From contig JBFWTF010000001.1 in the NCBI GenBank assembly GCA_050247995.1, forward strand, positions 1 through 46,161: a stretch of 46,161 nt of DNA, read 5' to 3'. A program made the position numbers and the translations under genes. Below, one piece after another: positions 1,009 to 43,815 of this stretch (within the stretch, counting starts at the first letter, position 1; the number at the start of each line of letters is the position of its first letter). Source of the stretch: Methyloceanibacter sp. Its GTDB lineage: Bacteria; Pseudomonadota; Alphaproteobacteria; Rhizobiales; Methyloligellaceae. The notes beneath the pieces are model-generated. The model did no database searches, had not been told where the DNA came from, and saw nothing but the letters and a program-made list of their open reading frames with translations.

Positions 1009-1058
1009 CTGCCGAACTCCACGCCAACCGACGCGACAAGCACTTCCGGGGCCTCCGG

Positions 1059-2105: not shown

Positions 2106-2136
2106 GGCCGTTTGCTCTTCTCGTTACACCGTACGT

Positions 2137-3204: not shown

Positions 3205-3635
3205 CTCTTTCCCGCCTGTTGTGGATTGGATTTTTCTTGCCGATCCGCGCCGCCGCTCTCGAGTCGATGACCCTCGGGGCGAAGCCCCCCGGGCGGCACG
3301 AGCCCGATCGACACGAGTTGCATCTCGCGTCCCGTCAGCACTTACGGCGACGGACGCCCGCACTCGGGTCAGCGGCAATTGTAGAGCGCCGCCGGGGTCA
3401 TGACCGCGTCGCAATGGGTGCAGAGCACCGTGAGCGGCACCTCGTCGATGTTGAGCCGCGCGCCCTCGCACAGCGTGTCCCGCGCCGCCGACGGGAAACA
3501 GAAATAGAGCGAGCGCGCGATGCCCGAAAGCACGCCCATGCGCAGGTTGATCTCGGCGACGCGGGCGGCGCCGAGGCTTTCCGCCTGGTGGCAGACCTGA
3601 TCGACCAGGGCCGTCGCGATCGTCATCTCATGCAT
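3201..3635 (-). pseudogene. hypA: Nickel metallochaperone HypA with two in-frame stops (TGA 3369-3371, TAA 3342-3344)
   Basis: MHEM start and CTHC, then reads R*PECGRPSP*VLTGREMQLVSI, matching the HypA CPxC...GREM C-terminus. Frame ends at TGA 3201-3203, coupled to the mfmA start. Confidence 0.85.
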
Positions 3636-4434
3636 GGCAGAACGCCGCCCCTTCCACCCGCGCCGGCCGCCCGGGCGCCTTCGTCAGCCACTCGATCCAG
3701 CCGGCCATGCCTTCACCGGTCCGCGCCGAAACCTTGAGCACGGCGATATCGGGATTGATCGCGCGCGCATGGGCGATGCAGCGCTCGACGTCGAAATCGA
3801 GATGCGGCAGGAGGTCGGTCTTCGACAGGACCATCGTGCTCGCGGCGGCGAAGGCATCGGGATATTTCAGCGGCTTGTCGTCACCCTCGGTCACCGACAG
3901 GATCGCCACCTTGTGCGCCTCGCCGAGATCGAAGCCCGCCGGGCAGACGAGGTTGCCGACATTCTCGATGAAGAGGATGGAGTTTGCCGCAAGCGGCAGC
4001 TCGTCGAGCGCGTGCCCGACCATATGGGCGTCGAGGTGGCAGCCGCGCCCCGTATTGATCTGCACGGTCGGCACGCCGGTCGCGCGGATGCGCTCGGCGT
4101 CGAGCGAGGTCTCCTGATCGCCCTCGATCACGGCGACGGGCACGGACGCTTTCAGCATCTCGATGGTCTTGACCAGGAGCGTCGTCTTGCCGGAGCCCGG
4201 GCTGGAGACGAGATTGAGGGCGAACACGGACGCGGCGTTCAACCGGTCGCGGTTCTCGCGCGCATAGGCGTCGTTGCGGGCGAGGATGTCCTGCTCGATG
4301 CGCACGAGGTCGTGCGGCGCATGATGGCCGTGTCCCTCATCGCCGTGATGGTGATGATGGCCATGATCGTGGTTGTGACCATGACCGTGGTCATGGTGCT
4401 CGCTATGATGGCTGCAACCGCATACGCCGCACAT
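3628..4434 (-). CDS. hypB: Nickel-insertion GTPase HypB
   Basis: MCGVCGC N-terminus, His-rich tract, [10 protein letters not shown]-loop, [27 protein letters not shown]. Confidence 0.95.
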
Positions 4435-6740: not shown

Positions 6741-6762
6741 GGACGGTCTCTCCAATTTTCGT

Positions 6763-12155: not shown

Positions 12156-12923
12156 TCACACCGCGGTGAAGCAATTATCGACGAAGAGATGCGCGCCGTT
12201 GATGAAGCTCGCTTCGTCGCTGGCGAGGAACAGCGCCGCGCGCGCCACTTCCTCCGGCTCGCAGATGCGCCCCTGCTGCACGGCGAGGGCGGCGTCCGAC
12301 ATGTCCACGCCGAGCTTGTTCAGCGCATCGACCTCGCGAAGCCCGTGCGGCGTGCGCACGAAACCCGGGCAGACGGCGTTGCAGCGGATGTTGTGGTCGC
12401 GATATTCGACCGCGATCGAGCGCGCGAACATGTGGCAGGCGCCTTTCGAGGTGTTGTAGACGACTTCGCGCGGCGTGGCCGCGATGGCCGAGATCGAGGA
12501 GGTGCAGACGATGGCGCCGCCGCCGGCCGCGATCATTCCCGGCAGCACGGCTTTGGTCATCAGGAACATGCTCGTGACATTGACAGCCATCAGCCATTCC
12601 CATTCGGCGAGCGTGGTTTCGAGGAAGGGCTTGATGAGGATCGAGCCCGCGTGATTGAAAAGCACGTTGGGCGCGCCGAGCGCGGCGGTGACGGCGGCGG
12701 CGGCCGCGTTCACCTGATCTTCCTTGGCGACGTCCGCGTGTGCGAACATGGCCGTGCCGCCGGCGCGCTCGATCTCGGCGACCACGGCGCGGCCCTCCTC
12801 TTCGTTCCGGTCGACGACGCCGACCTTGGCGCCTTCCGCCGCGAACAGCCGCGACGAGGCGCCGCCCATGCCGGTCGCGCCGCCCGAGATCAATGCGATT
12901 TTTCCTGCCAATCTGCCCGACAT
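12156..12923 (-). CDS. Short-chain dehydrogenase/reductase
   Basis: SGGATGMG, NHAG, YNTSK catalytic motif, CPGFVRT. Confidence 0.92.
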   Translation of the reverse strand: MSGRLAGKIALISGGATGMGGASSRLFAAEGAKVGVVDRNEEEGRAVVAEIERAGGTAMFAHADVAKEDQVNAAAAAVTAALGAPNVLFNHAGSILIKPFLETTLAEWEWLMAVNVTSMFLMTKAVLPGMIAAGGGAIVCTSSISAIAATPREVVYNTSKGACHMFARSIAVEYRDHNIRCNAVCPGFVRTPHGLREVDALNKLGVDMSDAALAVQQGRICEPEEVARAALFLASDEASFINGAHLFVDNCFTAV

Positions 12924-13049: not shown

Positions 13050-14981
13050 ATGAGCCGGTATCGTGACATCTACCAGAGCTGGAATGCCGACCCGGAGGCC
13101 TTCTGGGCCGAGGCTGCATCCGCGGTCGATTGGTTCAAGCCTTGCGATAAGGTGTTCGACGGGAACGCCGGGCAATACGGGCGCTGGTTTCCCGGTGCCC
13201 GGTGCAACACGGCGTATAATTGCCTCGACCGCCACGTTGAGCAGGGCAGGGGCGCGGCGCCCGCGCTCATCTACGATAGCCCGGTCACCGGCACCAAGCG
13301 GACCTTCACCTTTTCCGAGCTTCGCGACGAGGTCGCTTCCTTCGCCGCCGTGCTTGCCGGGCTTGGCGTCGCGAAGGGCGACCGCGTCGTCATCTATATG
13401 CCGATGGTGCCCGAGGCCGTGATCGCCATGCTGGCGACGGCGCGGCTCGGCGCGATCCATTCGGTCGTGTTCGGCGGCTTCGCCAGCAACGAGCTTGCCA
13501 AGCGCCTCGACGACGCCAAGCCAAAGGTGGTGGTGTCGGCCTCGTGCGGCATCGAGCCGTCCCGCGTCGTCGCCTACAAGCCGCTTCTCGACAAGGCCAT
13601 CGACCTCGCGTCGCACAAGCCCGAGAGCTGCATCATCCTCCAGCGCCCGATGGCGATCGCCGAGTTGAAGGAAGGCCGCGACCACGATTGGGGCTTGCTT
13701 CTGGCCGACGCCAGGTCGCGCGGGCTCGCGGCGGATTGCGTGCCTGTCGCCGCGACCGACCCGCTCTATATCCTCTACACCTCCGGCAGCACCGGCGCGC
13801 CGAAGGGCGTCGTGCGCGACAATGGCGGCCACATGGTGGCCCTCATCTGGACGATGAAGAACCTTTACGGGATGAAGCCCGGCGAGGTGTTCTGGTCCGC
13901 ATCCGACATCGGCTGGGTGGTTGGGCACTCATATATTGTCTATGGCCCGCTTCTCGCCGGCAACGCCACCGTTCTCTATGAGGGCAAGCCGGTGGGCACG
14001 CCTGACGCCGGCGCGTTCTGGCGCGTCGCAAGCGAGCACAAGGTCGCGGTCCTCTTCACCGCGCCGACCGCGCTCCGCGCCATCAAGAAGGAGGATCCGC
14101 AAGGCGCGTTGATCCGCAAATACGACCTGTCCAACCTGCGCGCGCTGTTCCTCGCCGGCGAGCGCGCCGATCCCAACACCGTGCTCTGGGCCGAGCAGCA
14201 CCTGAACATGCCCGTGATCGACCATTGGTGGCAGACCGAGACAGGCTGGGCCATCGCCGGCAATCCGCTTGGGCTAGAGCGTCTCCCCGTCAAGCGCGGC
14301 TCGCCCACTCTGCCGATGCCGGGTTACGACGTGCGCGTTCTCGACGACGCCGGCCATCCGGTGGCCGATGGGCAGCTCGGCAATATCGCCATCAAGCTGC
14401 CGCTCCCGCCCGGCTGCTTTCCGACGCTGTGGAACGCCGATGCCCGCTTCGGTCCGAGCTATCTCGACGAGTTCCCCGGTTACTACAAGACCGCCGATGC
14501 CGGCTACCGCGACGCCGACGGCTATCTCTTCATCATGGGCCGCACCGACGACATCATCAATGTCGCCGGGCACCGGCTCTCGACCGGGGCGATGGAGGAG
14601 GTGCTGGCATCGCACCAGGATGTGGCCGAGTGCGCCGTGATCGGCGCCGCCGATGCGCTCAAAGGCGAAGTGCCGATCGGCTTCCTCGTGCTGAAAGCGG
14701 GCGTCGATCGCGACGGCGCCGCGATCGAGAAAGAAGTGGTCGCGCTTGTCCGCGAAAAGATCGGCCCCGTCGCCGCGTTCAAGACGGCCCTGGTCGTGCC
14801 GCGACTGCCCAAGACCCGCTCGGGCAAGATCCTGCGCGGCACCATGAAGAAGATCGCCGACGGCGCAAGCTTCGCCATGCCCGCCACCATCGACGATCCC
14901 GCCATTCTCGATGAAATCGGCGCGGCGCTTGGCGCGCGTAAGGGCGCGCCGTCTCCGGTAGAGGGTAGGGGGGAATCATGA
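13050..14981 (+). CDS. prpE: Propionyl-CoA synthetase (acetate/propionate-CoA ligase)
   Basis: YTSGSTGAPKG, DHWWQTETGW, GRTDDIINVAGHRLS and PKTRSGKILR motifs. Start taken at MSRY (13050). Confidence 0.88.
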   Translation: MSRYRDIYQSWNADPEAFWAEAASAVDWFKPCDKVFDGNAGQYGRWFPGARCNTAYNCLDRHVEQGRGAAPALIYDSPVTGTKRTFTFSELRDEVASFAAVLAGLGVAKGDRVVIYMPMVPEAVIAMLATARLGAIHSVVFGGFASNELAKRLDDAKPKVVVSASCGIEPSRVVAYKPLLDKAIDLASHKPESCIILQRPMAIAELKEGRDHDWGLLLADARSRGLAADCVPVAATDPLYILYTSGSTGAPKGVVRDNGGHMVALIWTMKNLYGMKPGEVFWSASDIGWVVGHSYIVYGPLLAGNATVLYEGKPVGTPDAGAFWRVASEHKVAVLFTAPTALRAIKKEDPQGALIRKYDLSNLRALFLAGERADPNTVLWAEQHLNMPVIDHWWQTETGWAIAGNPLGLERLPVKRGSPTLPMPGYDVRVLDDAGHPVADGQLGNIAIKLPLPPGCFPTLWNADARFGPSYLDEFPGYYKTADAGYRDADGYLFIMGRTDDIINVAGHRLSTGAMEEVLASHQDVAECAVIGAADALKGEVPIGFLVLKAGVDRDGAAIEKEVVALVREKIGPVAAFKTALVVPRLPKTRSGKILRGTMKKIADGASFAMPATIDDPAILDEIGAALGARKGAPSPVEGRGES

Positions 14982-16571: not shown

Positions 16572-16626
16572 GGGCAAGTTGCGCCGCCTTCCTGTCAAAT
16601 GCCCTTCGGTGCCTCGATCCTATCCT
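16572..16626 (+). promoter_or_regulatory. Tandem GGCAAG/GTCAAA sites (21-bp period) plus -10-like TATCCT for the dehydratase operon
   Basis: gggcaagtt...cctgtcaaatgc, then TATCCT 27 nt after GTCAA; near-identical layout at 20095. Confidence 0.6.
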
Positions 16627-16669: not shown

Positions 16670-18958
16670 ATGGCCGGAGAGCCGGGCAGCTTCGCCAATC
16701 GCTGGAAGCGCTTCTCCGACTGGGACGAGCGCCCCTTGCGGCTAGACAAATTCGCGGTCGAAGACGCCGAGAACGGCTTTGCCTCCTTCACGAGCCCTCA
16801 CGATCCCAAGCCCGGGGTGAGCTTGGCCACGACCGGGGCCGCGGTCGAGGTGATGGACGGCACCGCCGCCCCCGACTTCGACATGATCGACGCTTTCATC
16901 GCCCGCTATCACATCGATCCGGAAGTGGCGCCGGAAGCGATGGCGATGCCCTCGCACGAGATCGCGCGCATGCTGGTCGATATGAACGTGCCGCGGAGCG
17001 AGCTGGTCAGGCTTGCGCGGGGGATGACGCCGGCCAAGCTCGCCGAGGTCGTGGCCGAATTGTCGTCGCTCGAAATCGCCTTCGCCTACAGCAAGATGCG
17101 CGCGCGCAAGACGCCCGGCAACCAGGCGCATGTCACCAACGCCAAGGACGACCCCTTGCAGATGGCGGCCGACGCCGCGACCGCCGTCGCGTTCGGCTTC
17201 GACGAGGTCGAGACGACGATGCGGGTCGCGCGCAATGCCTGGTCGAATGCCATCGCCTGCGCCGTCGGGGCCTCGGTCGGACGCTGGGGCACGCTGTTCC
17301 AGTGCTCGAGCGAGGAGGCCGAGGAGCTGAGGATCGGCATGGCCGGCTTCACCTCCTATGCCGAGACCGTCTCGGTCTACGGCACCGAGAAGAGCTTCAT
17401 CGACGGCGACGACACGCCGTGGTCCAAGGCCTTTCTCGCCGCGGCTTACGCCTCGCGCGGCATCAAGATGCGCTGCACTTCGGGCGCGGGCTCCGAATTG
17501 CTGATGGGATTCCACGAGAAGAAGTCGCTGCTCTATCTCGAAGCGCGCTGCCTCTGCCTCCAGCGCGCCATGGGCGTACAGGGCACGCAGAACGGCGGCA
17601 TCGACGGGGCGCCCATCACCTGCACCGTTCCGGGGGGCATGCGCGAGCTCATGGCCGAGAATCTCATCGCCGTCTGGCTCGACCTCGAATGCGCCTCCGG
17701 TAACGATGCGCGCCCGACCGAATCCGAAATTCGCGTCGGCGCCAAGATCATGCCCTACCTCATCGCCGGCTCCGACCTCATCTGCTCGGGCTTTGGCTCG
17801 ATCCTGAAATACGACAACTCCTTCAACCCGTCGCTGCTCAACGGCGAGGAACTCGAGGACTATCTCGTGCTCCAGCGCGATTTCGAGGCCGATGGCGGCC
17901 TCACTCCCGTCGAGGAGACGAGGGTGCTGCGCTTGAGGACGCGCGCGGTGGAAGCGATCAGCGCCGTGCTCGAGGAACTCGGTCTCGGCCGGCCGACCGA
18001 AGACATGAAGACGAGCGTCATATCCGCCTCCGGCTCCGACGAGACGCGAAGCTATCTCCCCCGCGACGTGGCTCTCATCAGCGAGAGCATCAAGGAGCAC
18101 GCGGTCACGGTCATCGACGTTATCAAGGCGCTGGCAAAGCGCGGCTTCGAGGAGGAGGCGGAAAACCTCCTGAAGCTCGTGCGCTTGCGGGTCTCGGGCG
18201 ATTATCTCCAGACCTCGGCGGTCGTGCGCGACGGTCGCGTCTTAAGCGCGATCAACGATCCCAACGACTATTTGGGCCCGGGCACCGGCTACCGCGTGAG
18301 CAAGGCGCGCCGCGACGAGATCGCGGCGATCCGCGATGTGCTTACCCGCGAGGAAGTGCTGCGGGCCGAGTCCGTGCACAAGGGCGCCGAGAGCAAGCGC
18401 ATAAGCTACCGGACGATGGGTCCCGCCGCCGTGGGCACGGACGCCGAAGAGGTCGTCATCGGGATCAGCCCCGCCTTCGGCGTCAAGCTGTTCCAGACCG
18501 TCGCCGGGCATCCGCTGTCGTCGATCTTGCGCGAGCTGATCGCCGGCATCGCCGAAGGCGGAGCGCGTGCGCGCGTCGTGCGCATGAAGCATACGGCCGA
18601 CACGTCGTTCCTCGGCCTCAGCGCCGCCCGGCTCGCAGGGAGCGGCGTCGGCATCGGCATCCAGGCCAAGGGCACCGCGATCATTCACCAGAAAGACCGG
18701 CTGCCGCACAACAATCTCGAGCTCTTTTCCAATTCGCCGATCACCCGGCTCGAGCATTACCGCCGCATGGGTGCGAACGCCGCCGCCTATGCGCGCGGCG
18801 AATTGCCGGAGCCGGTCGTCGTGCCGATGCGGGGCGAGGCGATGGGCTCGCGCTACCATGCGCGCGTGTCTCTGATCTATGCCATCGAGACGGAAATGAC
18901 CGCCGAGGGCGCCGCGCCCGAGGAGGTTTCGGTCGCCTTCGCCGGGGAGGGCGCATGA
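16670..18958 (+). CDS. pduC: Adenosylcobalamin-dependent diol/glycerol dehydratase-like enzyme, fused large (alpha) + medium (beta) subunits
   Basis: NQAHVTN, ETT, YAETVSVYGTE, QNG and LDLECASGND motifs of the large subunit. From about 18400, medium-subunit motifs EEVVIGISPAFG, GSGVGIGIQAKGT and NLELFS. Confidence 0.9.
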   Translation: MAGEPGSFANRWKRFSDWDERPLRLDKFAVEDAENGFASFTSPHDPKPGVSLATTGAAVEVMDGTAAPDFDMIDAFIARYHIDPEVAPEAMAMPSHEIARMLVDMNVPRSELVRLARGMTPAKLAEVVAELSSLEIAFAYSKMRARKTPGNQAHVTNAKDDPLQMAADAATAVAFGFDEVETTMRVARNAWSNAIACAVGASVGRWGTLFQCSSEEAEELRIGMAGFTSYAETVSVYGTEKSFIDGDDTPWSKAFLAAAYASRGIKMRCTSGAGSELLMGFHEKKSLLYLEARCLCLQRAMGVQGTQNGGIDGAPITCTVPGGMRELMAENLIAVWLDLECASGNDARPTESEIRVGAKIMPYLIAGSDLICSGFGSILKYDNSFNPSLLNGEELEDYLVLQRDFEADGGLTPVEETRVLRLRTRAVEAISAVLEELGLGRPTEDMKTSVISASGSDETRSYLPRDVALISESIKEHAVTVIDVIKALAKRGFEEEAENLLKLVRLRVSGDYLQTSAVVRDGRVLSAINDPNDYLGPGTGYRVSKARRDEIAAIRDVLTREEVLRAESVHKGAESKRISYRTMGPAAVGTDAEEVVIGISPAFGVKLFQTVAGHPLSSILRELIAGIAEGGARARVVRMKHTADTSFLGLSAARLAGSGVGIGIQAKGTAIIHQKDRLPHNNLELFSNSPITRLEHYRRMGANAAAYARGELPEPVVVPMRGEAMGSRYHARVSLIYAIETEMTAEGAAPEEVSVAFAGEGA

Positions 18959-19383
18959 GCGAGGAAAAGCTCACCATTGGCGACTATCCCTTGGCGGAGA
19001 AGCGCCCCGACATCGTGCGCGGCAAGCGCGGCAAGGGTCTCGATGAGCTCACGCTCGAGGCCGTGCTCGAGGACCGCGTCGCGCTCGAGGACTTGCGCAT
19101 CACGGGAAGAGCGTTGCGCCAGCAGGCTGAGATCGCCCGCGCCGCCGGGCGGGAGACGCTTGCCGAGAACTTCGAACGCGCGGCCGAGCTCGTCGAAGTC
19201 CCGCAAGACACGATCATGCGAATCTATGAGTTGCTGCGTCCCGGCCGGGCGGAACGGCAAAGCGAACTTCTCGCCGCAGCCAAGGAATTGCGGGAGCAAT
19301 ACGGGGCAAACGGCATGGCCGCATTCGTGGAAGAAGCCGCCGCCATCTACGAGCGCCGCGGCCTGTTCAAGAAAAGGTTCTGA
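18955..19383 (+). CDS. pduE: Diol dehydratase small (gamma) subunit
   Basis: DYPLAEKRP, DLRIT, LAENFERAAEL, IYELLRP, FVEEAAAIYERR; ATGA overlap with the upstream gene. Confidence 0.92.
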   Translation: MSEEKLTIGDYPLAEKRPDIVRGKRGKGLDELTLEAVLEDRVALEDLRITGRALRQQAEIARAAGRETLAENFERAAELVEVPQDTIMRIYELLRPGRAERQSELLAAAKELREQYGANGMAAFVEEAAAIYERRGLFKKRF

Positions 19384-20093: not shown

Positions 20094-20149
20094 GGGTCAA
20101 GTTTGTCCTGGTCCTGGTCAAATGCGGCGGTGCGTCGAATGGATAAGGT
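20094..20149 (+). promoter_or_regulatory. Tandem GGTCAA sites (21-bp period) plus -10-like TAAGGT for the ABC/SDR operon
   Basis: gggtcaagtt...ctggtcaaatgc; TAAGGT lies 27 nt after the second GTCAA. Confidence 0.65.
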
Positions 20150-20351: not shown

Positions 20352-21506
20352 ATGCGCCAACGGCACGTAACTCGCCGTAACTTCATGCAGCAATCCGCCG
20401 CCTTCGCCGCCGCGTTCGCGGCAGGAGGAGCTTCCGCGTTCGTGAGGCCGGCCTACGCCGCGCGCGACAAGGAACTGAACATCCTGTGTTGGGAGGGCTA
20501 CAACTCGGCCCAGGTGCTCGACCCCTTCCGGTCCAAGACGGGCGCGACCGTCAAGGCCGAGAGTCTCACCAACGATCCGACCATGATCAACCGCCTCAGG
20601 GCCGGTGAGACCAACGTCTGGGACCTGATCAACGTGAACAATCCTTGGGCGCGGAAAGTCATGCTGCCCGAGAAGCTGATCAAGCCGCTCGACCGCGCCA
20701 AGTTCGAGCCCTACTTCGACAAGATGCTGCCGGCGTTCAAGCCGCCCTATAAATGGGCCATGGACGATACCGGCACCGAGCTGATCGGCATGGCTCAGCG
20801 CTTCGGGCCTTATTCCTTCGTCGTCAACACCGACAAGATCAGCCGCGAGACCGCCGAGGATCAGGGCTGGGATCTGTGGAACGATCCCAAGCTCGCCGGC
20901 CGATACGGCATCCTCGAATCGGACGATTGGAACGTGTTCTGCATCTGCGCCATCGCGGGATTCGACCCCTTCAAGACGCATAGCGACGAGGAAGTCGCGA
21001 AATTCGCCGAGACCGCCAAGCGCGTCTTCAACGGCAAGAAGCTTGTCGGCGACATCGCCACCTGCAACCAGGGGCTCGTGTCTGGCGAGATCGACTTCCA
21101 CCTCACCGGTGGCACCTACTCAGTGTCGCCCGCGCGCGCCGACGGTCACATGAACCTCCGCGGCATCACGCCGAAGAAGGGCCCGTTCGCTGGCGGCAAG
21201 GGCGGCGTTGCCTGGATCGAGATAACCTCAACGGTCAACAATCCGGACCTGTCGCCGCTCGCGCCCGAGTTCCTCGCCTACGTCCAGGCGCCGGACATGG
21301 CCCATACCGTCGCCTTCGCCGAAGGCACCTACAACCCGGTCGCCCAGATGGGCAACCCGGAGTGCTTCAAGCTCTTCACCAAGGAGGAACTCGAGGCCAT
21401 TCAGTGGGACAGCCTGGACGAGGAGATGGCGGGCTCGGTCGAGTACGACATTGTTCCCGATTACGACAAGCTGCTCGACATCTGGAACGAGGCGAAGAAG
21501 GGCTGA
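20352..21506 (+). CDS. PotD/PotF-like polyamine-type ABC substrate-binding protein with Tat signal
   Basis: TRRNFMQ twin-arginine leader, LNILCWEGY, GGVAWIE; AGGAG RBS. Confidence 0.88.
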   Translation: MRQRHVTRRNFMQQSAAFAAAFAAGGASAFVRPAYAARDKELNILCWEGYNSAQVLDPFRSKTGATVKAESLTNDPTMINRLRAGETNVWDLINVNNPWARKVMLPEKLIKPLDRAKFEPYFDKMLPAFKPPYKWAMDDTGTELIGMAQRFGPYSFVVNTDKISRETAEDQGWDLWNDPKLAGRYGILESDDWNVFCICAIAGFDPFKTHSDEEVAKFAETAKRVFNGKKLVGDIATCNQGLVSGEIDFHLTGGTYSVSPARADGHMNLRGITPKKGPFAGGKGGVAWIEITSTVNNPDLSPLAPEFLAYVQAPDMAHTVAFAEGTYNPVAQMGNPECFKLFTKEELEAIQWDSLDEEMAGSVEYDIVPDYDKLLDIWNEAKKG

Positions 21507-21555
21507 CCGGCGGCTCGATCGGCGTTGTCCAGGTCGCATTCTCGGTATTTAAATA

Positions 21556-21593
21556 GCAGCCTTCCGCATGGCCCGATCCCTGCGGGAGGCTGC
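21556..21593 (+). other. Stem-loop after the binding-protein gene (mRNA stabiliser or attenuator)
   Basis: gcagccttccgca / tgcgggaggctgc inverted repeat. Confidence 0.6.
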
Positions 21594-21626
21594 CTGATCT
21601 GGACGATCCCCTAGGTTGAGAGCCAC

Positions 21627-22700
21627 GTGACGCCCAAACGCCCGGCCATTCTGACGCTGAAGGCTCTGCGCAAGGAGTTCGGAGCCTTCACGGCGGTCGA
21701 CGGCATCGATCTCGAGATCGCCGAAGGCGAGTTCTTCACCATCGTCGGGCCGTCGGGCAGCGGCAAGACGACGCTGATCCGCATGCTGGCCGGCCTGGAG
21801 ACGCCGACCTCGGGCGACATCCTCTTGCGCCAGGCCCGCATCAACACCGTGCCGGCCAACGAGCGGCCGACCTGCATGGTGTTCCAGTCGCTCGCCCTGT
21901 TTCCCCATCGCAGCGTCGGCGAGAACATCGAGTTCGCCATGAAGATTCGCGGCGTAGCCCCCGCCGAGCGCAAGGCGCGCGTGCTCGAGCTTCTGCGCCA
22001 GCTCAGGCTTCCCGCATCCTACTACGCGAAGAGCGTGCAGAAATGCTCGGGCGGCGAGCGCCAGCGCGTCGCGCTCGCGCGCGCGCTGGCCAACAATCCC
22101 GAGATCCTGTTCTTCGACGAACCGCTCTCGGCGATCGACTACAAGCTGAGGAAGACCCACGAGAAGGAACTCAAGGACATTCACCGGGAAACCGGCAAGA
22201 CCTTCGTCTATATCACCCATAGTCTCGAGGAGGCGATGGTCATGAGCGACCGCATCGGCGTCATGCGCGCCGGCAAGCTGGTGCAGGTCGGTACCCCGAA
22301 CGAAATTTATTCGGCGCCGCGAACCAAGTTCGTTTCCGAGTTCATGGGCGACGTCAACGTCATCGCGGTGAAGAGCGCCGGCAACGGCGCGCTGCTGGCG
22401 CCTTCCCTGCAGGCGAAGTTCACGCCGCCCCCCGGCGCGCCGCGGATCGAGTCGGGCCATCTCGTCATCCGGCCGGAATATGTCCGCTTCCTCGCCAAGC
22501 CCGACGAGGCCGCCAACTGTCTGAGCGGGCGCCTCTACAATGAATACGCGCTCGGCTCGCGCATTCAGTATCAGGTCCGCGTCGGCGACCAGGTGTTCGT
22601 GGTCGAGAAGCTGCGCCAGCAGGCTTACAACGGCAAGCTCGACGATCAAGTGCTCATCGGCTGGGATTCCGAGCACGCCATTCTGGTGGGGGAGGAATGA
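21627..22700 (+). CDS. PotA-like ABC ATP-binding protein
   Basis: GPSGSGKTT, variant signature CSGGERQR, FFDEPLS, C-terminal TOBE-like region. Confidence 0.92.
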   Translation: MTPKRPAILTLKALRKEFGAFTAVDGIDLEIAEGEFFTIVGPSGSGKTTLIRMLAGLETPTSGDILLRQARINTVPANERPTCMVFQSLALFPHRSVGENIEFAMKIRGVAPAERKARVLELLRQLRLPASYYAKSVQKCSGGERQRVALARALANNPEILFFDEPLSAIDYKLRKTHEKELKDIHRETGKTFVYITHSLEEAMVMSDRIGVMRAGKLVQVGTPNEIYSAPRTKFVSEFMGDVNVIAVKSAGNGALLAPSLQAKFTPPPGAPRIESGHLVIRPEYVRFLAKPDEAANCLSGRLYNEYALGSRIQYQVRVGDQVFVVEKLRQQAYNGKLDDQVLIGWDSEHAILVGEE

Positions 22701-23557
22701 CCTCCGGCGGTGGCACGGCCGGGAAGGAGGGGCGGCGCGCGGCCGCGCCCTTGCTCTTGTTGCTCGCCCTGGGCTTCGCCGTGCCGCTGATCGCGGTGAC
22801 CGCTTTCAGCTTCATGCCGCCGCGCACTTTCAGCCTGCTCCAGGCGCCGACGCTGGAAAACTACCGGACGATCTTCACCGGGACGTCCTATATCTCTTTC
22901 CTCTGGTCTGTCACGCTCGCGACCGCAACCGTCGTCCTGCTTGCGCTCATCTGCTACCCCGTCGCCTACGGTCTCGTGCACGTGTTCGGCCGCTGGTCGA
23001 CCCTCCTCACGCTGCTCTTCACCATTCCTCTTTTCGTCTCGGAGAACATCCGCCTCTATGGCTGGGTGCTGTTCTTCATCAAGAACGGCGTGCTGCTCGG
23101 GACCGTGAAAACGCTGTTCGGCATCGAGATGCAGAGCATTCTGTTCACGCTCGGCGCCATCCTTCTCGGCATGGTCTACGTCTATCTGCCATTCATGCTG
23201 TTCCCCATGACGCTCAGCGTCGCCATGGTGCCGAACGATACGCGAGAGGCGGCGCGCGACCTCGGTGCAAGCCGCTGGCAGGTGTTTCGCGAGGTCGAGT
23301 TGCCGCTGTCGATGCCCGGCATCCTGATCGGGTGCCTGCTCACCTTCGTGCTCGCGGTCGGCGCCATCGCCGAAGCCAAGATTCTCGGCGGGCAGCGCAT
23401 CATCCCCATCACCCATGACATCGAGATCGCTTTCACCTATTCGCAGAACTGGCCGCTCGGCGCCGCGCTGGCCGTGCTCCTCATGCTGCTGGTCGGCATT
23501 CTGGTGATCTCCGTCCTGCGCCGCTTCGACCTCGACCAGATCTTGGGGAGGCGCTAG
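22697..23557 (+). CDS. PotB-like ABC permease
   Basis: TM helices, YVYLPFM, EAARDLGASRW, NWPLGAA. Confidence 0.9.
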   Translation: MTSGGGTAGKEGRRAAAPLLLLLALGFAVPLIAVTAFSFMPPRTFSLLQAPTLENYRTIFTGTSYISFLWSVTLATATVVLLALICYPVAYGLVHVFGRWSTLLTLLFTIPLFVSENIRLYGWVLFFIKNGVLLGTVKTLFGIEMQSILFTLGAILLGMVYVYLPFMLFPMTLSVAMVPNDTREAARDLGASRWQVFREVELPLSMPGILIGCLLTFVLAVGAIAEAKILGGQRIIPITHDIEIAFTYSQNWPLGAALAVLLMLLVGILVISVLRRFDLDQILGRR

Positions 23558-23562
23558 GTCCG

Positions 23563-24402
23563 ATGCTCGCCTTTCCCGAACGCGTGCGCCACGCGCTTAT
23601 CACGGTCTGGACCGCGGCCGTCCTCGTGTTCATGTTCCTGCCGGGCGTCACGATCCTGCTCGCGTCGCTCACGGCGAGCCGCTATTTCACCTTCCCGATC
23701 CAGAGATGGGGCTTCGAGTGGTGGGACAAGACGTTTTCCTCCATCGAGGTGCGCCAGCTCCTTTCGACGTCGCTATCGATCGCGGCCGTGGTCATGGTCA
23801 TCGCCGTGGCGATCGGCTTCTTCGGCGCGCTCGCCTTTGCCCGTTACGATTGGCGCGGGCGCTCGCTCTACCAGCGCATCGTGCTCTTGCCCATCTTCTT
23901 TCCCCAGACCGTGCTTGGCCTGGCGATGCTGCTCTGGTTCAACGCGATCGGGCTCGACCTGTCGTGGAAGACCGCCGTCTTCGCCCACCTCGTCTGGATC
24001 GTTCCGGTCGTCACGCTCGTCATCGCCATCCAGGTCTATTCGTTCGACCCGGCACTCGAGGAAGCGGCGTTCGACCTTGGCGCGTCGCGCTGGCAGGTGT
24101 TGCGCGAAGTGACGCTGCCGGTGCTGTTTCCCGGCATCTTTTCCGGCGCGTTGTTCGCGTTTCTGTTGTCGTGGGGTAACTTCCCGTTGTCGCTCTTCAC
24201 GACCGGCGCCGATACCACGGTGCCGGAATATCTCTATGCCAAGATGGTCGCGGGCTATACCCCGGGCGTTCCGGTGCTCGGCACGGTATCGACCATCGGC
24301 GCGATCCTCATCCTGTTTGGCGGCTATACTCTGATCCTGCTCTGGCGGAGGCGCGCCGAGGCCGCGGGCAAGCAGGAGTTCGCCGAAGAGGTCGCGGGCT
24401 AG
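23563..24402 (+). CDS. PotC-like ABC permease
   Basis: TM helices, LEEAAFDLGASRW, FAFLLSW. Confidence 0.9.
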   Translation: MLAFPERVRHALITVWTAAVLVFMFLPGVTILLASLTASRYFTFPIQRWGFEWWDKTFSSIEVRQLLSTSLSIAAVVMVIAVAIGFFGALAFARYDWRGRSLYQRIVLLPIFFPQTVLGLAMLLWFNAIGLDLSWKTAVFAHLVWIVPVVTLVIAIQVYSFDPALEEAAFDLGASRWQVLREVTLPVLFPGIFSGALFAFLLSWGNFPLSLFTTGADTTVPEYLYAKMVAGYTPGVPVLGTVSTIGAILILFGGYTLILLWRRRAEAAGKQEFAEEVAG

Positions 24403-24442: not shown

Positions 24443-25222
24443 ATGTTGACATCGATCGCAGGCCGGTCCGTCATCGTCACGGGGTCGAGCAAGGGTATCG
24501 GCAAGGGCATCGCCAAGGTCTTTGCCCGGAACGGCGGCAAGGTCCTCATCGTATCGCGTCATGGCGACGAGGCCGAGGCCTGCGCCGCGGAGCTGCGCGG
24601 CGCCGGCGGAACGGCGAAAGGCCACGCCGCCGACGTCACCAAGTTCGCGGACATGCAGGCCATGGCGGAAGCGGCGGCGAAGGCTCATGGCGGCATCGAC
24701 GTTCTGTGCGCCAATGCCGGCATCTTCCCTCAGACCAAGATCGAGGAGCTGTCCCCGGAAGACTGGGATCACGTGATGGCGACCAACCTCAAAGGGACCT
24801 TCCTCGCGATCAAGGCCTGCCTGCCCTATCTCAAGAAGTCGGACCAGGGCCGGGTCGTGATCACGTCTTCGATCACGGGTCCGGTCACGGGTTTCCCCGG
24901 ATGGGCCCATTACGGCGCGACCAAAGCAGGCCAACTCGGCTTCATGCGCACGGTGTGCATGGAGCTCGCCAAATACGGCATCACCGTCAATGCCGTGCTT
25001 CCCGGCAATATCCTGACCGAAGGCTTGATCGAGCTCGGGCCGGACTACGAGCGCTCGATGGCGGCGTCGATTCCGTTGAAGAAGCTCGGCACCGTCGAGG
25101 ATATCGGTCACGCCGCGCTGTTCCTCGCCTCGAAGGAAGCGGGCTACATCACCGGCCAGAGCATCATCGTCGATGGCGGTCAGATCATCCCCGAGAGCCT
25201 GGACGCTCTCGCGCAAGCCTAG
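24443..25222 (+). CDS. SDR, 1-amino-2-propanol dehydrogenase (aminoacetone reductase)-like
   Basis: TGSSKGIG, CANAGIFP, TSSITGPVTGFPGWAHYGATK, PGNILTEGL and DGGQIIPES match, from memory, the Mycobacterium/Rhodococcus amino-alcohol dehydrogenase. Confidence 0.75.
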   Translation: MLTSIAGRSVIVTGSSKGIGKGIAKVFARNGGKVLIVSRHGDEAEACAAELRGAGGTAKGHAADVTKFADMQAMAEAAAKAHGGIDVLCANAGIFPQTKIEELSPEDWDHVMATNLKGTFLAIKACLPYLKKSDQGRVVITSSITGPVTGFPGWAHYGATKAGQLGFMRTVCMELAKYGITVNAVLPGNILTEGLIELGPDYERSMAASIPLKKLGTVEDIGHAALFLASKEAGYITGQSIIVDGGQIIPESLDALAQA

Positions 25223-25244: not shown

Positions 25245-26318
25245 TCAGTCCCCGGGCTCGTCGAGCAGAGACTTGCGCAAGTTGCGCGGCGACTGGCCCG
25301 TCCAGCGGCGCACGGCGCGGCTGAAGGCCGAAAGCTCGGAATAGCCGACGAGGAACGCGATTTCGGAGAACGGCAATTGGCGCTGACGCATATAGCACAG
25401 CGCCAGGTCGCGCCGCGCGGATTCGACCAGGCCGTGATAGCTGAGCCCGTCGCAATGGAGCTCGCGCTGAAGCGTCCGCGCCGATAAGCGTAGATCCGCC
25501 GCGATCTGCTCGATCGGGGGAAGGCCGTCGGGAAGCCGCGCCCGCACCGCCGCCCGCACCCGGTCGGTGATGCTCGCGCGCAGATCGGTGCGCTCCGACA
25601 GCCGTTCGAGGCAGAGCCGCATCGCGAACATGAGGCGAGTGTCGCGCGCCGGCATCGGTGCTGACAGGATTTCGGGGCGGAACAGCAGCGCGTTCGTCGG
25701 CTGCGAGAAAAAAGCTGGCGCGGCGAAGGCCCGTTCGTGCTCGCGCCATGCCGCGGGCTTGGGGTGCTCGAAATGCACTTCCTCCGGCGCCCAGGCCGGG
25801 CCGAGACACTCGCGAAAGAGATTGAGGAACATTCCGAGCGACAGTTCCGCGTCCTGGCGCTTCTCGGCGATGTCGGCGGCATCGATGCGGTATTCGAGCC
25901 TGAGCAGACCGTCGGCGCCCTCGGCGAACCGCATCGAGGACGATTGCTGATGCAGCGGAAAGAGGTCGACCAGAGTCTTGAGCGCGAGCCCGAGCGTCGG
26001 CGCCGACACCGCCGCATAACCCCAAAGTCCAAGATCGCGCGGCTCGAAGCTGTGTCCGAACCACAGACCGAAATTGTCGTTCTGGGTGAGCCGGGCGCCT
26101 TCCTCGAACAGCCGGCAATAAGATTTGAGGCTGAGTTGCAGTGTCGGCGAACCTGCCATTTCGGGCGAGAGGCCGGCATGGCCGAAGATGCGGTCGAGAT
26201 CGCCGTTCTGGCGTTCGATATAGGCGGTGATGCCGGTGGCTGCGGCGGCGAGAACCGTAGGGTCGGACTCCAGACCCACGGCGCCAACTTTCCCGACTTC
26301 GGTGAGGCTCGCTCCCAT
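25245..26318 (-). CDS. AraC/XylS family transcriptional regulator
   Basis: C-terminal SARTLQREL and SEIAFLVGYSELSAFSRAVRRWTGQSP double HTH; N-terminal ligand domain. Confidence 0.92.
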   Translation of the reverse strand: MGASLTEVGKVGAVGLESDPTVLAAAATGITAYIERQNGDLDRIFGHAGLSPEMAGSPTLQLSLKSYCRLFEEGARLTQNDNFGLWFGHSFEPRDLGLWGYAAVSAPTLGLALKTLVDLFPLHQQSSSMRFAEGADGLLRLEYRIDAADIAEKRQDAELSLGMFLNLFRECLGPAWAPEEVHFEHPKPAAWREHERAFAAPAFFSQPTNALLFRPEILSAPMPARDTRLMFAMRLCLERLSERTDLRASITDRVRAAVRARLPDGLPPIEQIAADLRLSARTLQRELHCDGLSYHGLVESARRDLALCYMRQRQLPFSEIAFLVGYSELSAFSRAVRRWTGQSPRNLRKSLLDEPGD

Positions 26319-26431: not shown

Positions 26432-27454
26432 CTAGCCCCGCTCGCGGGTTCCGCCGAATTGCGAGAGATAGCGCTCGCACAAGGGGAGGGTGGCTTCCGT
26501 GTAGGCGACGCCCATGGATTGCGCGAGCTCCGTCTCCGAATGCGAGCCGATCCAGGCGACAAGGAGCAGGCGGCGCAGCATGACGAACGTATCGATCTCG
26601 GCCACGTCCTCCGCCGAGAGCGTGCCGACGCGGCGATAGCCCCGCACCCACGCCTCGATCAGCGCCGGAACGTCGGGACTGTCCTCGAAGAAGGACACCG
26701 TCGTCGCGCAGTCGTAGAGGAACCAGGAGAAGCCGCAATCGTCGAAGTCGATGACCTTGATGGTGCCGTCGTCCATGAGCAGGTTGGCGAGACGCATGTC
26801 GCCGTGGATGAGGTTGAACCGGTCGGGCGACTTGCCGAACCGGTCGAGGCGCCGTTCGATGAGCCGGACTGTCTCGCCCATCGTTTCGCGAGCCTCGTTG
26901 GTCATGCCCATTCCATCCTGCCAGCGTCCCCAATGCGGACGGCTCCCGAGGCTCGTCTCGAAATCCCAGGTGTGGCGTTCGAACCAGGGCGGGCGCTGCC
27001 AGTCCCTCACATGGGCGTGCATGCGCGCCGCGGTCTCTCCCAAAGTCTCGAAACCGGCGGCGTCCGTGGCGGCGGGCTCCTTGCCCTCTTCCCAAGCGAA
27101 CAGCACGACATTGCGCGGCCGCTTCAGGCCGTCCCCGGCAACGGTCTGGATGAGCTCTCCGTCGAGACCGGCGATCGGCCTCGGCGTGATCGCCGCGCCC
27201 GCTTCCCTGAGGGCGATCTGCCATAAGAGTTCCGACGCGATCGCGTTACGCGAATGGTAGCCCTCGCGGTGCACGCGGAGCGCCCATTTCGAGCCGGTCG
27301 CAGGATCGTCCACGCGATAGGTCGCGTTCTCCGAAAGATTGATCAGCTCGACCGTGGCGCCAGGCGGCAGGTCGTAGCGGCTCAGGGCCTGCTCGGCGAG
27401 GCGCTCGAGCCGGCGCAGCAATTCCTCGTGCGAAAGAGCGGTGTCGCCCGCCAT
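26432..27454 (-). CDS. APH / homoserine kinase type II-like phosphotransferase (amino-alcohol kinase-like)
   Basis: SENATY, ALRVHR, IHGDMRLANLL and VIDFDDCG motifs. Start re-set to ATG 27454, with GGAG RBS. Confidence 0.85.
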   Translation of the reverse strand: MAGDTALSHEELLRRLERLAEQALSRYDLPPGATVELINLSENATYRVDDPATGSKWALRVHREGYHSRNAIASELLWQIALREAGAAITPRPIAGLDGELIQTVAGDGLKRPRNVVLFAWEEGKEPAATDAAGFETLGETAARMHAHVRDWQRPPWFERHTWDFETSLGSRPHWGRWQDGMGMTNEARETMGETVRLIERRLDRFGKSPDRFNLIHGDMRLANLLMDDGTIKVIDFDDCGFSWFLYDCATTVSFFEDSPDVPALIEAWVRGYRRVGTLSAEDVAEIDTFVMLRRLLLVAWIGSHSETELAQSMGVAYTEATLPLCERYLSQFGGTRERG

Positions 27455-27511
27455 CCTTAACTCCGTCCATGGCGCCGGTGTGAATCGGCCCCGCGCCAAA
27501 CCTCTCAAAAC

Positions 27512-27565
27512 ACACTAGGGAGCGGTTTGCCAGTGGACTTGACCGCAATCAGCCGGCACTTGACC
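27512..27565 (-). promoter_or_regulatory. Tandem GGTCAAGT direct repeats (21-bp period) plus -10-like TAGTGT for the kinase-AraC unit
   Basis: acttgacc at 27537 and 27558; TAGTGT lies 26 nt from the proximal GTCAA. Confidence 0.65.
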
Positions 27566-27924: not shown

Positions 27925-29148
27925 TCATTTCATGACGGCTTTGCGGTGGCCGAGATGGCCGTGCGCCACGAGCGTGCCGAGAACGTCGAGCATAACACGG
28001 CAGGCGAGCTGCGCGGTATTGTCATTGACGTCGTAGGGCGGGGAGACCTCGACCACCTCCATGCCGCACAACCCTTCCGCCGCGATGGTGTGGATCATCT
28101 CAAGGGCCTCGCGCGGCAGCAAGCCGCCTGGCTCCGGCGATCCCGTGCCCGGCGCGAAACCGGGATCGATCGAGTCGATGTCGAACGAGAGATAGACCGC
28201 CTTGCATCCCTCCCAAGCCATGTCGAGGGCGATCTCCGCTGCTTTCCGCGCTCCATGCTCGTCGATGTCCTTCATGGTGAGAACGCTGGTGCCGCGCCGC
28301 TTGGCGACGGCGGTGCCCGGCCGGTTGCCGTACCAGCCGCCGATGCCGACCTGGACGAGATTCTTGGGATGGCAGTTGGGCAGGCCCACGTCGTGCATGT
28401 GGCTGTGATCGCGATGGGTCGTGACCGTGCCTTCATGCGTGGTCCAGAACCACGGCGTCGTATGCATACGCTCATCCATATCCTTCTCCTGGATATCGAT
28501 GTGGCGGTCGATATGGATGATGCCGACATTGCCGTCGATATGCGGCGCGATCCCGCGCACATTGGGGAAGCCGAGGCTGTGGTCGCCGCCGCAGATCACG
28601 GGGAAGACGCCCGAGGTGTAGATGTGCGAGATCGCCTTGGTGACCTGGTCGAAGGTCTTTTCGATATTGCCGGGGATCACGAAGATGTCGCCGGCGTCGC
28701 AAAGATCGAGCTCCTCGAAAATATCGACGCCGCCGTCGAACCAGTACCCGTCATAGAGCGCCGAGATGCGCCGCACCGCCTGCGGCCCGAACCGCGTTCC
28801 CGGACGGTAGGTGGTGGCGGAGTCGAAGGGCGCGCCGACGAAGGCCGCTTCGAAATCGCCGATCTTGCGGATATTCTCGCAATACGGCGCCTTCATGAAG
28901 GTGTTGATGCCGGCGAAGGCCGGCTGATGGCCGCGGCTGAAGAGCGAGATGGTGCGATCGATGACGGAGTCGGCGGCTTGAAGCCCAAGCCTCAGCGAGC
29001 GCTTGATCTCCTCATCCTGCTTCTTCTGCGAGATGCGCGACAGCGTTGCCATGGTCTTGGCGCCGTCGGTCTCGCTCCGCTTCACGCCGTGGGACTTCCG
29101 TGTGCTGCGGACACGGCCCTGACTCCGGCCCGTCTTCTTCACCGCCAT
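27925..29148 (-). CDS. Ureohydrolase, guanidine hydrolase (GdmH)-like variant
   Basis: FAGINTF, TTYRPGTRFGPQ, GGDHS, HIDRHID, DERMHT, GIGGW and SFDIDSID, all GdmH-like; has PGTGSPEPGG. Confidence 0.85.
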   Translation of the reverse strand: MAVKKTGRSQGRVRSTRKSHGVKRSETDGAKTMATLSRISQKKQDEEIKRSLRLGLQAADSVIDRTISLFSRGHQPAFAGINTFMKAPYCENIRKIGDFEAAFVGAPFDSATTYRPGTRFGPQAVRRISALYDGYWFDGGVDIFEELDLCDAGDIFVIPGNIEKTFDQVTKAISHIYTSGVFPVICGGDHSLGFPNVRGIAPHIDGNVGIIHIDRHIDIQEKDMDERMHTTPWFWTTHEGTVTTHRDHSHMHDVGLPNCHPKNLVQVGIGGWYGNRPGTAVAKRRGTSVLTMKDIDEHGARKAAEIALDMAWEGCKAVYLSFDIDSIDPGFAPGTGSPEPGGLLPREALEMIHTIAAEGLCGMEVVEVSPPYDVNDNTAQLACRVMLDVLGTLVAHGHLGHRKAVMK

Positions 29149-43788: not shown

Positions 43789-43815
43789 GGCGCAGGCGCC
43801 CCGCGCTGGCGCGCC

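What the first reader, a model, noticed from the sequence alone, without database searches (positions are those of the whole stretch)
16670..19383. Fused alpha-beta diol-dehydratase homolog with a re-tooled, acidic substrate pocket
Seen: a single 762-aa alpha+beta fusion with core catalytic motifs retained, but reading QNGGIDG and NDARP. From memory, Klebsiella PduC has QNGSVSC and NDQTF, so the S301 and Q336 pocket positions would be Asp and Ala here. No reactivase genes are adjacent. Inference: a new carboxylate and a larger pocket suit an ammonium-bearing substrate. This could be an amino-alcohol ammonia-lyase (or amino-diol dehydratase) on the diol dehydratase scaffold, distinct from EutBC.
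Basis: partly seen in the sequence, partly recalled or inferred. Interest (0 to 1): 0.82.

Follow-up and report, generated by a model that had tools for sequence, protein, structure and literature searches.

The report
Acidic-pocket B12 dehydratase, aminopropanol cluster
This vitamin-B12 diol-dehydratase gene has two subunits fused, keeps its diol-binding residues, carries an aspartate at a substrate-pocket position and sits among genes resembling an aminopropanol-breakdown pathway, so it likely acts on a nitrogen-bearing diol rather than plain propanediol, but the substrate is untested.

Summary
Observation confirmed. 16670-18958 encodes a 762-aa alpha+beta fusion, followed by gamma. Against PDB 1dio, Ser301 is Asp312 and Gln336 is Ala347. 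All diol and metal contacts are kept in every Asp301 locus that covers them (180-184 loci). This favours an amino-DIOL dehydratase over an EutBC-like ammonia-lyase. One direct repeat precedes the dehydratase, transporter and kinase genes and occurs nowhere else in the assembly. In 301 genomes of the order, 21 of 22 with this enzyme have the kinase, against 0 of 5 with Ser301-type enzymes. A reactivase is missing in the alphaproteobacterial branch (0 of 21) but present in a second Asp301 branch (24 of 27 loci), so its loss is not tied to the pocket. The fusion, the missing reactivase and the link to amino-alcohol loci (RMM2) are already in print, and the scan found the same pocket before on other DNA. 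Best reading: an accessory feeder acting on a 3-amino-1,2-diol; the product is unresolved. New variant of a known kind.

The parts
16670..18958 (+). Fused alpha+beta B12-dependent diol-dehydratase homologue, 762 aa; pocket D312 (=S301) and A347 (=Q336)
   Evidence: model folds on diol dehydratase alpha (TMt 0.95) and beta (TMt 0.95)
18955..19383 (+). Dehydratase small (gamma) subunit, overlapping the fused gene's stop
   Evidence: PF02287
19392..20087 (+). Isochorismatase-family cysteine hydrolase, likely an amidase; beside the dehydratase in 36 of 38 full-flank loci
   Evidence: PF00857
15102..16439 (-). Class-III PLP enzyme of the amino-alcohol-phosphate phospho-lyase type, divergent from the dehydratase
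   Evidence: best PDB matches 5g4i 'phospholyase' (E 4e-106) and 6tor ethanolamine-phosphate phospho-lyase
20352..24402 (+). PotABCD-like (polyamine-type) ABC importer: binding protein, ATPase, two permeases
   Evidence: NCBIfam PotD and PotA matches, both below cut-off; permeases read from ORF list
24443..25222 (+). SDR, likely 1-amino-2-propanol dehydrogenase / aminoacetone reductase
   Evidence: PDB 3pk0, 6ci8, 6ci9 at about E 1e-89, against E 1e-50 or weaker for other SDRs; identity of 6ci8/6ci9 as the M. smegmatis RMM enzyme is recalled
25245..26318 (-). AraC-family regulator
   Evidence: PF12625 + HTH_18; NF049968 above cut-off
26432..27508 (-). APH-family kinase, likely amino-alcohol kinase
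   Evidence: best PDB 6ef6, E 3e-79; identity of 6ef6 as the (S)-1-amino-2-propanol kinase is recalled
16574..16600 (+). Direct-repeat site (21-base period) upstream of the dehydratase, likely AraC operator
20097..20123 (+). Same direct-repeat site upstream of the ABC-SDR operon
27537..27563 (-). Same direct-repeat site upstream of the kinase
13050..14981 (+). PrpE-like propionate-CoA ligase, possible sink for propionaldehyde-derived propionate; loosely linked (9 of 38 loci)
   Evidence: NF007815 best match, below cut-off
12156..12923 (-). Second SDR, loosely linked (15 of 38 loci), role unknown

Best explanation
This is an intact fused alpha-beta plus gamma diol-dehydratase homologue with Asp and Ala at the Ser301 and Gln336 pocket positions, and it likely acts as an adenosylcobalamin-dependent dehydratase for a vicinal diol bearing an amine on the next carbon (simplest candidate 3-amino-1,2-propanediol), which would feed the neighbouring, predicted aminopropanol pathway. 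Shown here: the fusion, the residue equivalences, the invariant diol/metal site, the Asp301 clade, the co-occurrence and the shared upstream repeat. Inferred steps: (1) the ABC importer takes up an amino alcohol or its N-acyl form, and the cysteine hydrolase frees the amine. (2) The two hydroxyls bind the retained metal/His143/Glu170/Asp335 site, while the ammonium pairs with Asp312 in the pocket opened by Gln-to-Ala. (3) Radical dehydration gives an amino-carbonyl. By pathway logic I favour aminoacetone (H abstraction at C2), because it is the substrate of the adjacent SDR. By canonical pocket geometry the product would be 3-aminopropanal, and C3 abstraction would give 3-hydroxypropanal plus ammonia. 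I split these about 40/35/25. (4) SDR, kinase and phospho-lyase would then yield propionaldehyde, phosphate and ammonia, and an unlinked aldehyde dehydrogenase plus PrpE would give propionyl-CoA.
For: Pocket: D312 = S301 and A347 = Q336. S301 hydrogen-bonds glycerol's 3-OH in 3AUJ, and S301A/Q336A makes room for longer substituents (passages of PMC9850924). Of 192 loci, 189 cover position 301 and 184 of these have Asp. In those 184, Q141, H143, E170, E221, T222, Q296, D335, S362 and F374 are invariant wherever covered (180-184 loci), and position 336 is never Gln. Position 337 is Arg in 100 and Leu in 80, so the Asp is not merely half of an obligate ion pair with Arg337. All 35 Asp301 rows separate from the 13 Ser301 rows on one branch (SH-aLRT 100, quick tree). 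Context: in 38 loci with full 10-kb flanks, the SDR lies nearby in 35, the hydrolase in 36 and the kinase in 29. Among 301 genomes the kinase is in 21 of 22 Asp-clade genomes (16 within about 17 kb), 0 of 5 Ser301-type genomes and 56 of 274 genomes with no dehydratase. In the second, about 50%-identical Asp301 branch, kinase and SDR are in 22 of 27 loci of at least 10 kb. Two Rhizobiaceae plasmids put the Asp301 enzyme in one same-strand run with a sugar-type ABC transporter, a non-orthologous SDR, a divergent APH kinase and a phospho-lyase, which suggests coupling rather than hitch-hiking. A shared direct repeat has 3 strict matches in the 2.3-Mb assembly, all in this cluster. 3-amino-1,2-propanediol was not among the five of eleven compounds consumed by E. 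coli carrying a canonical pdu operon (bioRxiv 10.64898/2026.06.05.730297, section 7; whole cells, so uptake may be limiting).
Against: There is no biochemical data. Asp also binds hydroxyls, and Gln-to-Ala is the classic change for longer neutral diols and triols. I had no model coordinates, so the position of the D312 side chain and its distance to R348 or R185 were not measured, and model confidence around residues 341-360 is only 63-66. The aminoacetone product needs non-canonical regiochemistry, although the canonical acid-base residues are unchanged. The kinase-lyase pair could in principle handle 3-amino-1,2-propanediol without a dehydratase. I know no abundant natural source of the candidate substrate. 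The enzyme is dispensable: the same cluster occurs without it (L119, L124, L125). Exceptions exist: in G031 and G143 it is not near the kinase, L149 has no SDR or kinase in 20 kb, and L161 has none in 15 kb. Axen 2014 read the RMM2 dehydratase as not used by the amino-alcohol pathway. The loci were selected by likeness to Asp-clade queries, and kin are not independent.
Confidence: 0.5

Rival explanations
1. It dehydrates a neutral longer diol or triol (for example 1,2,4-butanetriol-like) that arises downstream, after kinase, phospho-lyase and a reductase have stripped the amine from an amino-polyol. Asp312 binds an extra hydroxyl.
For: S301A/Q336A accepts longer diols and 1,2,4-butanetriol. 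The diol site is intact. The Rhizobiaceae operons use a carbohydrate-type ABC transporter. No unusual regiochemistry is needed.
Against: Ser already hydrogen-bonds a 3-OH. A separate fused Ser301/Ala336 branch exists, and its two sampled genomes lack the kinase (G293, G146), so the charge change, not the bigger pocket, tracks with the amine genes. The window's SDR is closest to the aminoketone-reductase family.
Confidence: 0.2
2. It is an amino-alcohol ammonia-lyase on the diol-dehydratase scaffold: 1-amino-2-propanol, perhaps the enantiomer the kinase rejects, binds with the amine at Asp312 and is converted to propionaldehyde plus ammonia.
For: Hydrogen abstraction from C3 competes in the Ser301-bound mode of glycerol (passage of PMC9850924), so the amine-bearing carbon could be reached. 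EutB was not found in this genome and is present in only 2 of 27 genomes searched. The product would join the same propionaldehyde sink.
Against: All contacts for two hydroxyls and the metal are invariant. The reaction would duplicate kinase plus phospho-lyase, with which the enzyme almost always co-occurs (21 of 22). EutB is only a distant fold match (12% identity, TMq 0.36).
Confidence: 0.15
3. It is an ordinary 1,2-propanediol/glycerol dehydratase, either hitch-hiking or finishing a serinol -> hydroxyacetone -> 1,2-propanediol route made by the kinase, lyase and SDR.
For: It passes the NCBIfam large-subunit cut-off (843 against 788 bits). All catalytic residues are kept. The literature files such fused enzymes as glycerol dehydratases, and Axen 2014 treats the RMM2 dehydratase as separate from the amino-alcohol pathway.
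Against: In the Klebsiella enzyme, Q336A and S301A/Q336A cut kcat/Km for 1,2-propanediol from 5.1 to 0.19 and 0.04 (x10^6; table passage of PMC7674605). A fixed Asp in 184 loci would be unexplained. The shared upstream repeat and the same-strand operons argue against hitch-hiking.
Confidence: 0.15

Closest known systems
Klebsiella oxytoca diol dehydratase PddABC (PDB 1dio, 3auj) and K. pneumoniae glycerol dehydratase (1iwp)
   Same: About 49% identity and the same fold (TMt 0.95); Q141, H143, E170, E221, T222, Q296, D335, S362 and F374 kept; alpha, beta and gamma parts
   Different: Alpha and beta fused; S301D, Q336A, V300I, T337R, M373S; no reactivase found; amino-alcohol gene context instead of pdu/dha
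Naturally fused DhaB1-DhaB2 of Mesorhizobium loti, M. opportunistum, Hyphomicrobium sp. and Mycobacterium (Martins-Pinheiro 2016, PMC4777399, passages; Liu 2010 only as cited there and in PMC7674605)
   Same: Fusion, absence of reactivation-factor genes, and an active site described as 'slightly different'
   Different: The passages I read call them glycerol dehydratases and name neither the Asp nor an amine substrate. I did not fetch those exact proteins, so their membership of the Asp301 clade is inferred (Hyphomicrobium hits).
RMM2 locus (Axen 2014, PMC4207490, passages) and the RMM1/AAUM aminoacetone-utilisation pathway of M. smegmatis
   Same: SDR, phosphotransferase, class-III PLP enzyme, permease and regulator together with diol dehydratase genes
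   Different: No shell genes in this window and no match to a relative's shell protein in the assembly; ETNPPL-type lyase (only 26% identical to the microcompartment-type PLP enzyme); ABC importer and AraC regulator; Axen concluded the dehydratase is probably not used, whereas the shared repeat here suggests one regulon
Ethanolamine ammonia-lyase EutBC (PDB 3abo)
   Same: B12 radical TIM-barrel eliminase; the candidate chemistry involves an amine
   Different: 12% identity, TMq 0.36; Pfam finds only dehydratase domains, no EutB or EutC

Membership tests
B12-dependent diol/glycerol dehydratase family (PduCDE/DhaB) | Large, medium and small subunit domains | tested here: met
   PF02286 + PF02288 in one chain, PF02287 next gene; NF011979 above cut-off
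B12-dependent diol/glycerol dehydratase family (PduCDE/DhaB) | Fold of alpha barrel and beta subunit | tested here: met
   Foldseek TMt 0.94-0.96 to 1dio, 3auj and 1iwp chains
B12-dependent diol/glycerol dehydratase family (PduCDE/DhaB) | Diol- and metal-binding residues Q141, H143, E170, E221, Q296, D335, S362 (roles partly recalled; four are listed as active-site variants in PMC7674605) | tested here: met
Canonical 1,2-propanediol/glycerol dehydratase (substrate-level) | C3 pocket with Ser301 and Gln336 | tested here: not met
   Asp312 and Ala347
Canonical 1,2-propanediol/glycerol dehydratase (substrate-level) | Linked reactivase (DdrAB/PduGH) | tested here: not met
   Not found in own assembly (81% complete) or in 21 of 21 Asp-clade relatives; found in 3 of 3 canonical split-type genomes
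Canonical 1,2-propanediol/glycerol dehydratase (substrate-level) | AdoCbl-dependent turnover of 1,2-propanediol or glycerol | not testable with these tools
   needs an assay
Ethanolamine ammonia-lyase EutBC | EutB/EutC sequence family | tested here: not met
   no Pfam or NCBIfam Eut hit; 12% identity in the fold match
Ethanolamine ammonia-lyase EutBC | Ammonia release from a vicinal amino alcohol | not testable with these tools
   needs an assay
RMM2 / aminoacetone-utilisation microcompartment locus | Aminopropanol SDR, APH kinase and class-III PLP lyase together | tested here: met
   (identity of PDB 6ci8 and 6ef6 as RMM enzymes is recalled)
RMM2 / aminoacetone-utilisation microcompartment locus | Shell (BMC) genes and acylating aldehyde dehydrogenase in the locus | tested here: not met
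   no hit to a relative's BMC-H or PduP-like protein in the 81%-complete assembly; present in some related loci

The most novel reading that the evidence does not exclude
The Asp301 clade is a widespread, uncharacterised B12 radical enzyme whose carboxylate anchors an ammonium and redirects hydrogen abstraction, turning an amino-diol into aminoacetone (or deaminating it). It would be the missing upstream signature step of the RMM2/aminoacetone pathway and the first diol-dehydratase-family enzyme made for amines, with an alphaproteobacterial branch that runs without a reactivase.
Probability: 0.3. Interest if true: 0.75.

Novelty: new variant of a known kind. Interest (0 to 1): 0.5.

Why it matters
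The role of the dehydratase genes in RMM2-type amino-alcohol loci was left open in print (Axen 2014), and the fused enzymes have been proposed as better glycerol dehydratases for industry (PMC7674605, PMC4777399). The pocket and context evidence says they are probably not glycerol enzymes and names a short, cheap substrate panel. If true, the family gains a natural amine-accepting member, a soil nitrogen-scavenging route gains its entry step, and enzyme engineers gain a natural single-chain scaffold that may not need a reactivase.

Tried and rejected
Assembly or frameshift artefact: rejected (120 of 120 best homologues are fused length). Asp312 as only a structural partner of Arg348: not required, since 80 Asp301 loci have Leu there; it cannot be excluded for this branch. 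Reactivase loss as a hallmark of the new pocket: rejected (second Asp301 branch has PF08841/PF18427 genes in 42 of 80 loci and 24 of 27 loci of at least 10 kb). Hydrolase as a dedicated dehydratase partner: weakened, because 13 of 30 genomes with the hydrolase have no dehydratase, 5 of 22 Asp-clade genomes lack it, and no hydrolase match appears in the 80 second-branch loci. AlphaFold model: gave fold confirmation only; no coordinates were available to measure the pocket. Rfam gathering scan: 0 matches in the window, so no cobalamin riboswitch. PDB search for the hydrolase: only weak matches (E 1e-13), no substrate clue. The tree is the quick version; the careful search did not finish. The two Mallette and Kimber 2018 papers were not read: the kinase paper is not held, and only titles were seen in reference lists. 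Sutter 2021 (PMC8217296): a term search gave nothing on dehydratases; its supplements were not opened and may list such loci. Literature searches (listings and abstract starts only, except for the papers cited) showed no paper that assays a natural Asp301 enzyme or assigns it an amine substrate; the library lacks most subscription journals, and I did not read Liu 2010.
Full report
Observation. The ORF at 16670-18958 (+) translates to 762 aa. It carries the dehydratase large-subunit domain at 11-560 and the medium-subunit domain at 600-713; the small subunit follows at 18955-19383. The 120 best of 7,990 homologues are 755-830 aa with both domains, so the fusion is real. Their sources name Methyloceanibacter and Hyphomicrobium. 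The phmmer alignment to K. oxytoca diol dehydratase 1dio_A has a constant 11-residue offset across the barrel: QNGGIDG faces QNGSVSC and NDARP faces NDQTF, so D312 = S301 and A347 = Q336. An AlphaFold model (mean pLDDT 85) matches the solved alpha and beta subunits with TMt about 0.95; ethanolamine ammonia-lyase is only a distant match (12% identity, TMq 0.36).

The pocket. Q141, H143, E170, E221, T222, Q296, D335, S362 and F374 are all kept. Their roles as metal ligands and hydroxyl partners are partly recalled; Q141, H143, E170, Q296 and S362 are tabulated as active-site variants in PMC7674605 (passages). I tallied 192 fetched loci (the window's own locus and 12 context regions left out; a few loci come from the same genome). 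Of these, 189 cover position 301: 184 have Asp and 5 have Ser. Among the Asp loci the nine residues are invariant wherever covered (180-184 loci), position 336 is Ala in 177 and never Gln, and position 337 is Arg in 100, Leu in 80, Ala in 2 and Lys in 2. These loci were found with Asp-clade queries, so the counts show conservation within the clade, not frequency in nature. Among 50%-cluster representatives three pocket types appear: Ser/Gln (canonical), Ser/Ala and Asp/Ala-or-Thr (many rows are fragments or noisy). A quick tree of 48 rows separates the 35 Asp rows from the 13 Ser rows with SH-aLRT 100 and splits the Asp rows into an alphaproteobacterial branch and a second branch about 50% identical (careful search unfinished, midpoint root). 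Published work places S301 in a hydrogen bond to glycerol's 3-OH, shows that S301A/Q336A opens room for longer substituents, and notes that C3 hydrogen abstraction competes when the 3-OH is held by S301 (passages of PMC9850924; section 7 of PMC7674605). Q336A and the double change cut kcat/Km for 1,2-propanediol from 5.1 to 0.19 and 0.04 x10^6. So the change is confined to the C3 pocket while the two-hydroxyl site is untouched. I infer a vicinal diol with a polar, probably cationic, C3 group.

The context. Divergent from the dehydratase is a class-III PLP enzyme whose best solved relatives are labelled phospholyase and ethanolamine-phosphate phospho-lyase. Downstream lie an isochorismatase-family hydrolase, a polyamine-type ABC importer, an SDR closest to 3pk0, 6ci8 and 6ci9, an AraC regulator, and an APH kinase closest to 6ef6. 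I recall 6ci8/6ci9 and 6ef6 as the M. smegmatis aminopropanol dehydrogenase and kinase; I saw only the titles of those papers. In 38 GTDB loci of at least 21 kb (of 80 fetched), the hydrolase is near in 36, the SDR in 35, the kinase in 29, this lyase type in 20 and PrpE in 9. In one sample of 301 genomes of the order, 27 have a dehydratase. Of these, 22 including the window's are Asp-clade (Asp read directly in 21; G037 is split across the site) and 5 are Ser-type (G146 truncated just before the site). The kinase occurs in 77 of 301: 21 of 22 Asp-clade genomes (16 within about 17 kb on one contig), 0 of 5 Ser-type genomes, and 56 of 274 genomes without a dehydratase. The enzyme is therefore nested in, and optional to, the amino-alcohol cluster; L119, L124 and L125 show the cluster without it. 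Kin are not independent, so I give no P value. In the second branch, 22 of 27 loci of at least 10 kb have both kinase and SDR; three misses have the gene at the contig start, while L149 and L161 are true misses within the stretch held. Several of these loci carry shell genes, and kinase, SDR, GntR, dehydratase, gamma and reactivase run on one strand (L152, L156, L164). On Shinella and Agrobacterium plasmids an Asp301/Thr336 enzyme is in one run with a sugar-type ABC transporter, an SDR only 28-29% identical to the window's, a kinase with no tblastn hit to the window's, and a 52-55% identical lyase. Keeping the SDR-kinase-lyase trio through non-orthologous replacement suggests metabolic coupling.

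Regulation. Aligning upstream regions revealed a direct repeat with a 21-base period. It occurs at 16574, 20097 and 27537-27563 (minus strand), in front of the dehydratase, the importer-SDR operon and the kinase. The strict form has 3 matches in the 2.3-Mb assembly, all here. A looser form has 24 matches in the 38 related loci (in 14 of them, mostly at equivalent places) and 8 in the own assembly. The pattern was derived from these sites, so the shuffle figure (0.08 expected) overstates significance. An earlier scan note on a shared AraC operator prompted the look. I read it as the likely AraC operator, which would put the dehydratase in one regulon with the amino-alcohol genes.

Reactivase and cofactor. 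PF08841 was not found in the own assembly (81% complete) or in 23 of 23 non-canonical genomes (21 Asp-clade, 2 others), but was found in 3 of 3 canonical split-type genomes. The second Asp branch does carry a reactivase (L143, PF08841 and PF18427; 42 of 80 loci, 24 of 27 large ones), so its absence is a trait of this branch, not of the pocket. The genome has two cobalamin adenosyltransferases and a methylmalonyl-CoA-mutase-family gene, and aldehyde dehydrogenases on other contigs. EutB was not found here and occurs in 2 of 27 genomes searched.

Mechanism. My best reading (0.5) is an amino-diol dehydratase feeding the aminopropanol route, with 3-amino-1,2-propanediol as the simplest substrate. 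A canonical Pdu system in E. coli did not consume this compound (bioRxiv 10.64898/2026.06.05.730297, section 7; whole-cell caveat). Pathway logic favours aminoacetone as product, pocket geometry favours 3-aminopropanal, and the C3-abstraction precedent allows 3-hydroxypropanal plus ammonia; these cannot be separated here. The linked hydrolase in this branch, and an acetamidase/formamidase gene just upstream in 5 second-branch loci, hint that the environmental compound is N-acylated. Rivals: a neutral triol downstream of the lyase (0.2), an amino-alcohol ammonia-lyase (0.15), and an ordinary propanediol enzyme (0.15).

What is known. The fusion, the lack of reactivase genes and a 'slightly different' active site are described for Mesorhizobium, Mycobacterium and Hyphomicrobium (passages of PMC4777399; PMC7674605). 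Axen 2014 defined RMM2 as the amino-alcohol locus plus diol dehydratase genes and judged the dehydratase probably unused (passages). My searches showed no assay of a natural Asp301 enzyme, within a library that lacks most subscription papers; I did not read Liu 2010 and opened no supplements. The scan itself noted this pocket and context several times on other genomes.

Verdict. Real, well conserved and testable, but a substrate variant of a known family whose architecture and neighbourhood are already catalogued: new variant of a known kind, interest 0.5.

Noticed in passing
window 107-4434 (-): Two tandem arginase-family genes with HypA, HypB/UreG-like and UreF genes. The layout recalls nickel-dependent guanidine, dimethylguanidine or metformin hydrolases (recalled, not tested).
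   Followed up: no
window 41419-45162: A DUF1989 + GCV_T protein (789 aa) and a flavin monooxygenase, convergent; they look like TMAO demethylase and trimethylamine monooxygenase (names recalled). With glutamine-synthetase-like genes at 5319-6755 and 35095-36789 and an agmatinase-like gene at 27925-29148, the whole contig is an amine-scavenging region.
   Followed up: no
G293:C4:639914-642142 (L103/L114); proteins P0123, P0128, P0134: A separate fused dehydratase branch with Ser301/Ala336, the natural counterpart of the engineered long-chain Q336A variant. In G293 it lies next to TRAP-like transporter genes (read from ORF starts) and no amino-alcohol kinase was found in that genome.
   Followed up: partly
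G272:C3:141809-144065 (L093/L110): The dehydratase gene is matched in two pieces (residues 7-111 and 111-760): a frameshift, either real decay or a sequencing error.
   Followed up: no
L119, L124, L125; The isochorismatase-family hydrolase is found in 13 genomes that have no dehydratase, beside the amino-alcohol kinase in the loci inspected: an uncharacterised conserved member of the aminopropanol pathway, likely an N-acyl-amino-alcohol amidase.
   Followed up: partly
L111:11801-22853, L112:11823-22843: Plasmid operon in Shinella and Agrobacterium in which the Asp301/Thr336/Lys337 dehydratase sits inside a sugar ABC transporter operon with a different SDR and kinase; possibly a larger amino-polyol substrate.
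   Followed up: partly
L149, L157, L138: A sub-branch of Asp301 enzymes without amino-alcohol genes or reactivase nearby in the longest locus (L149), followed by a conserved opposite-strand gene of about 400 aa with no Pfam match.
   Followed up: no
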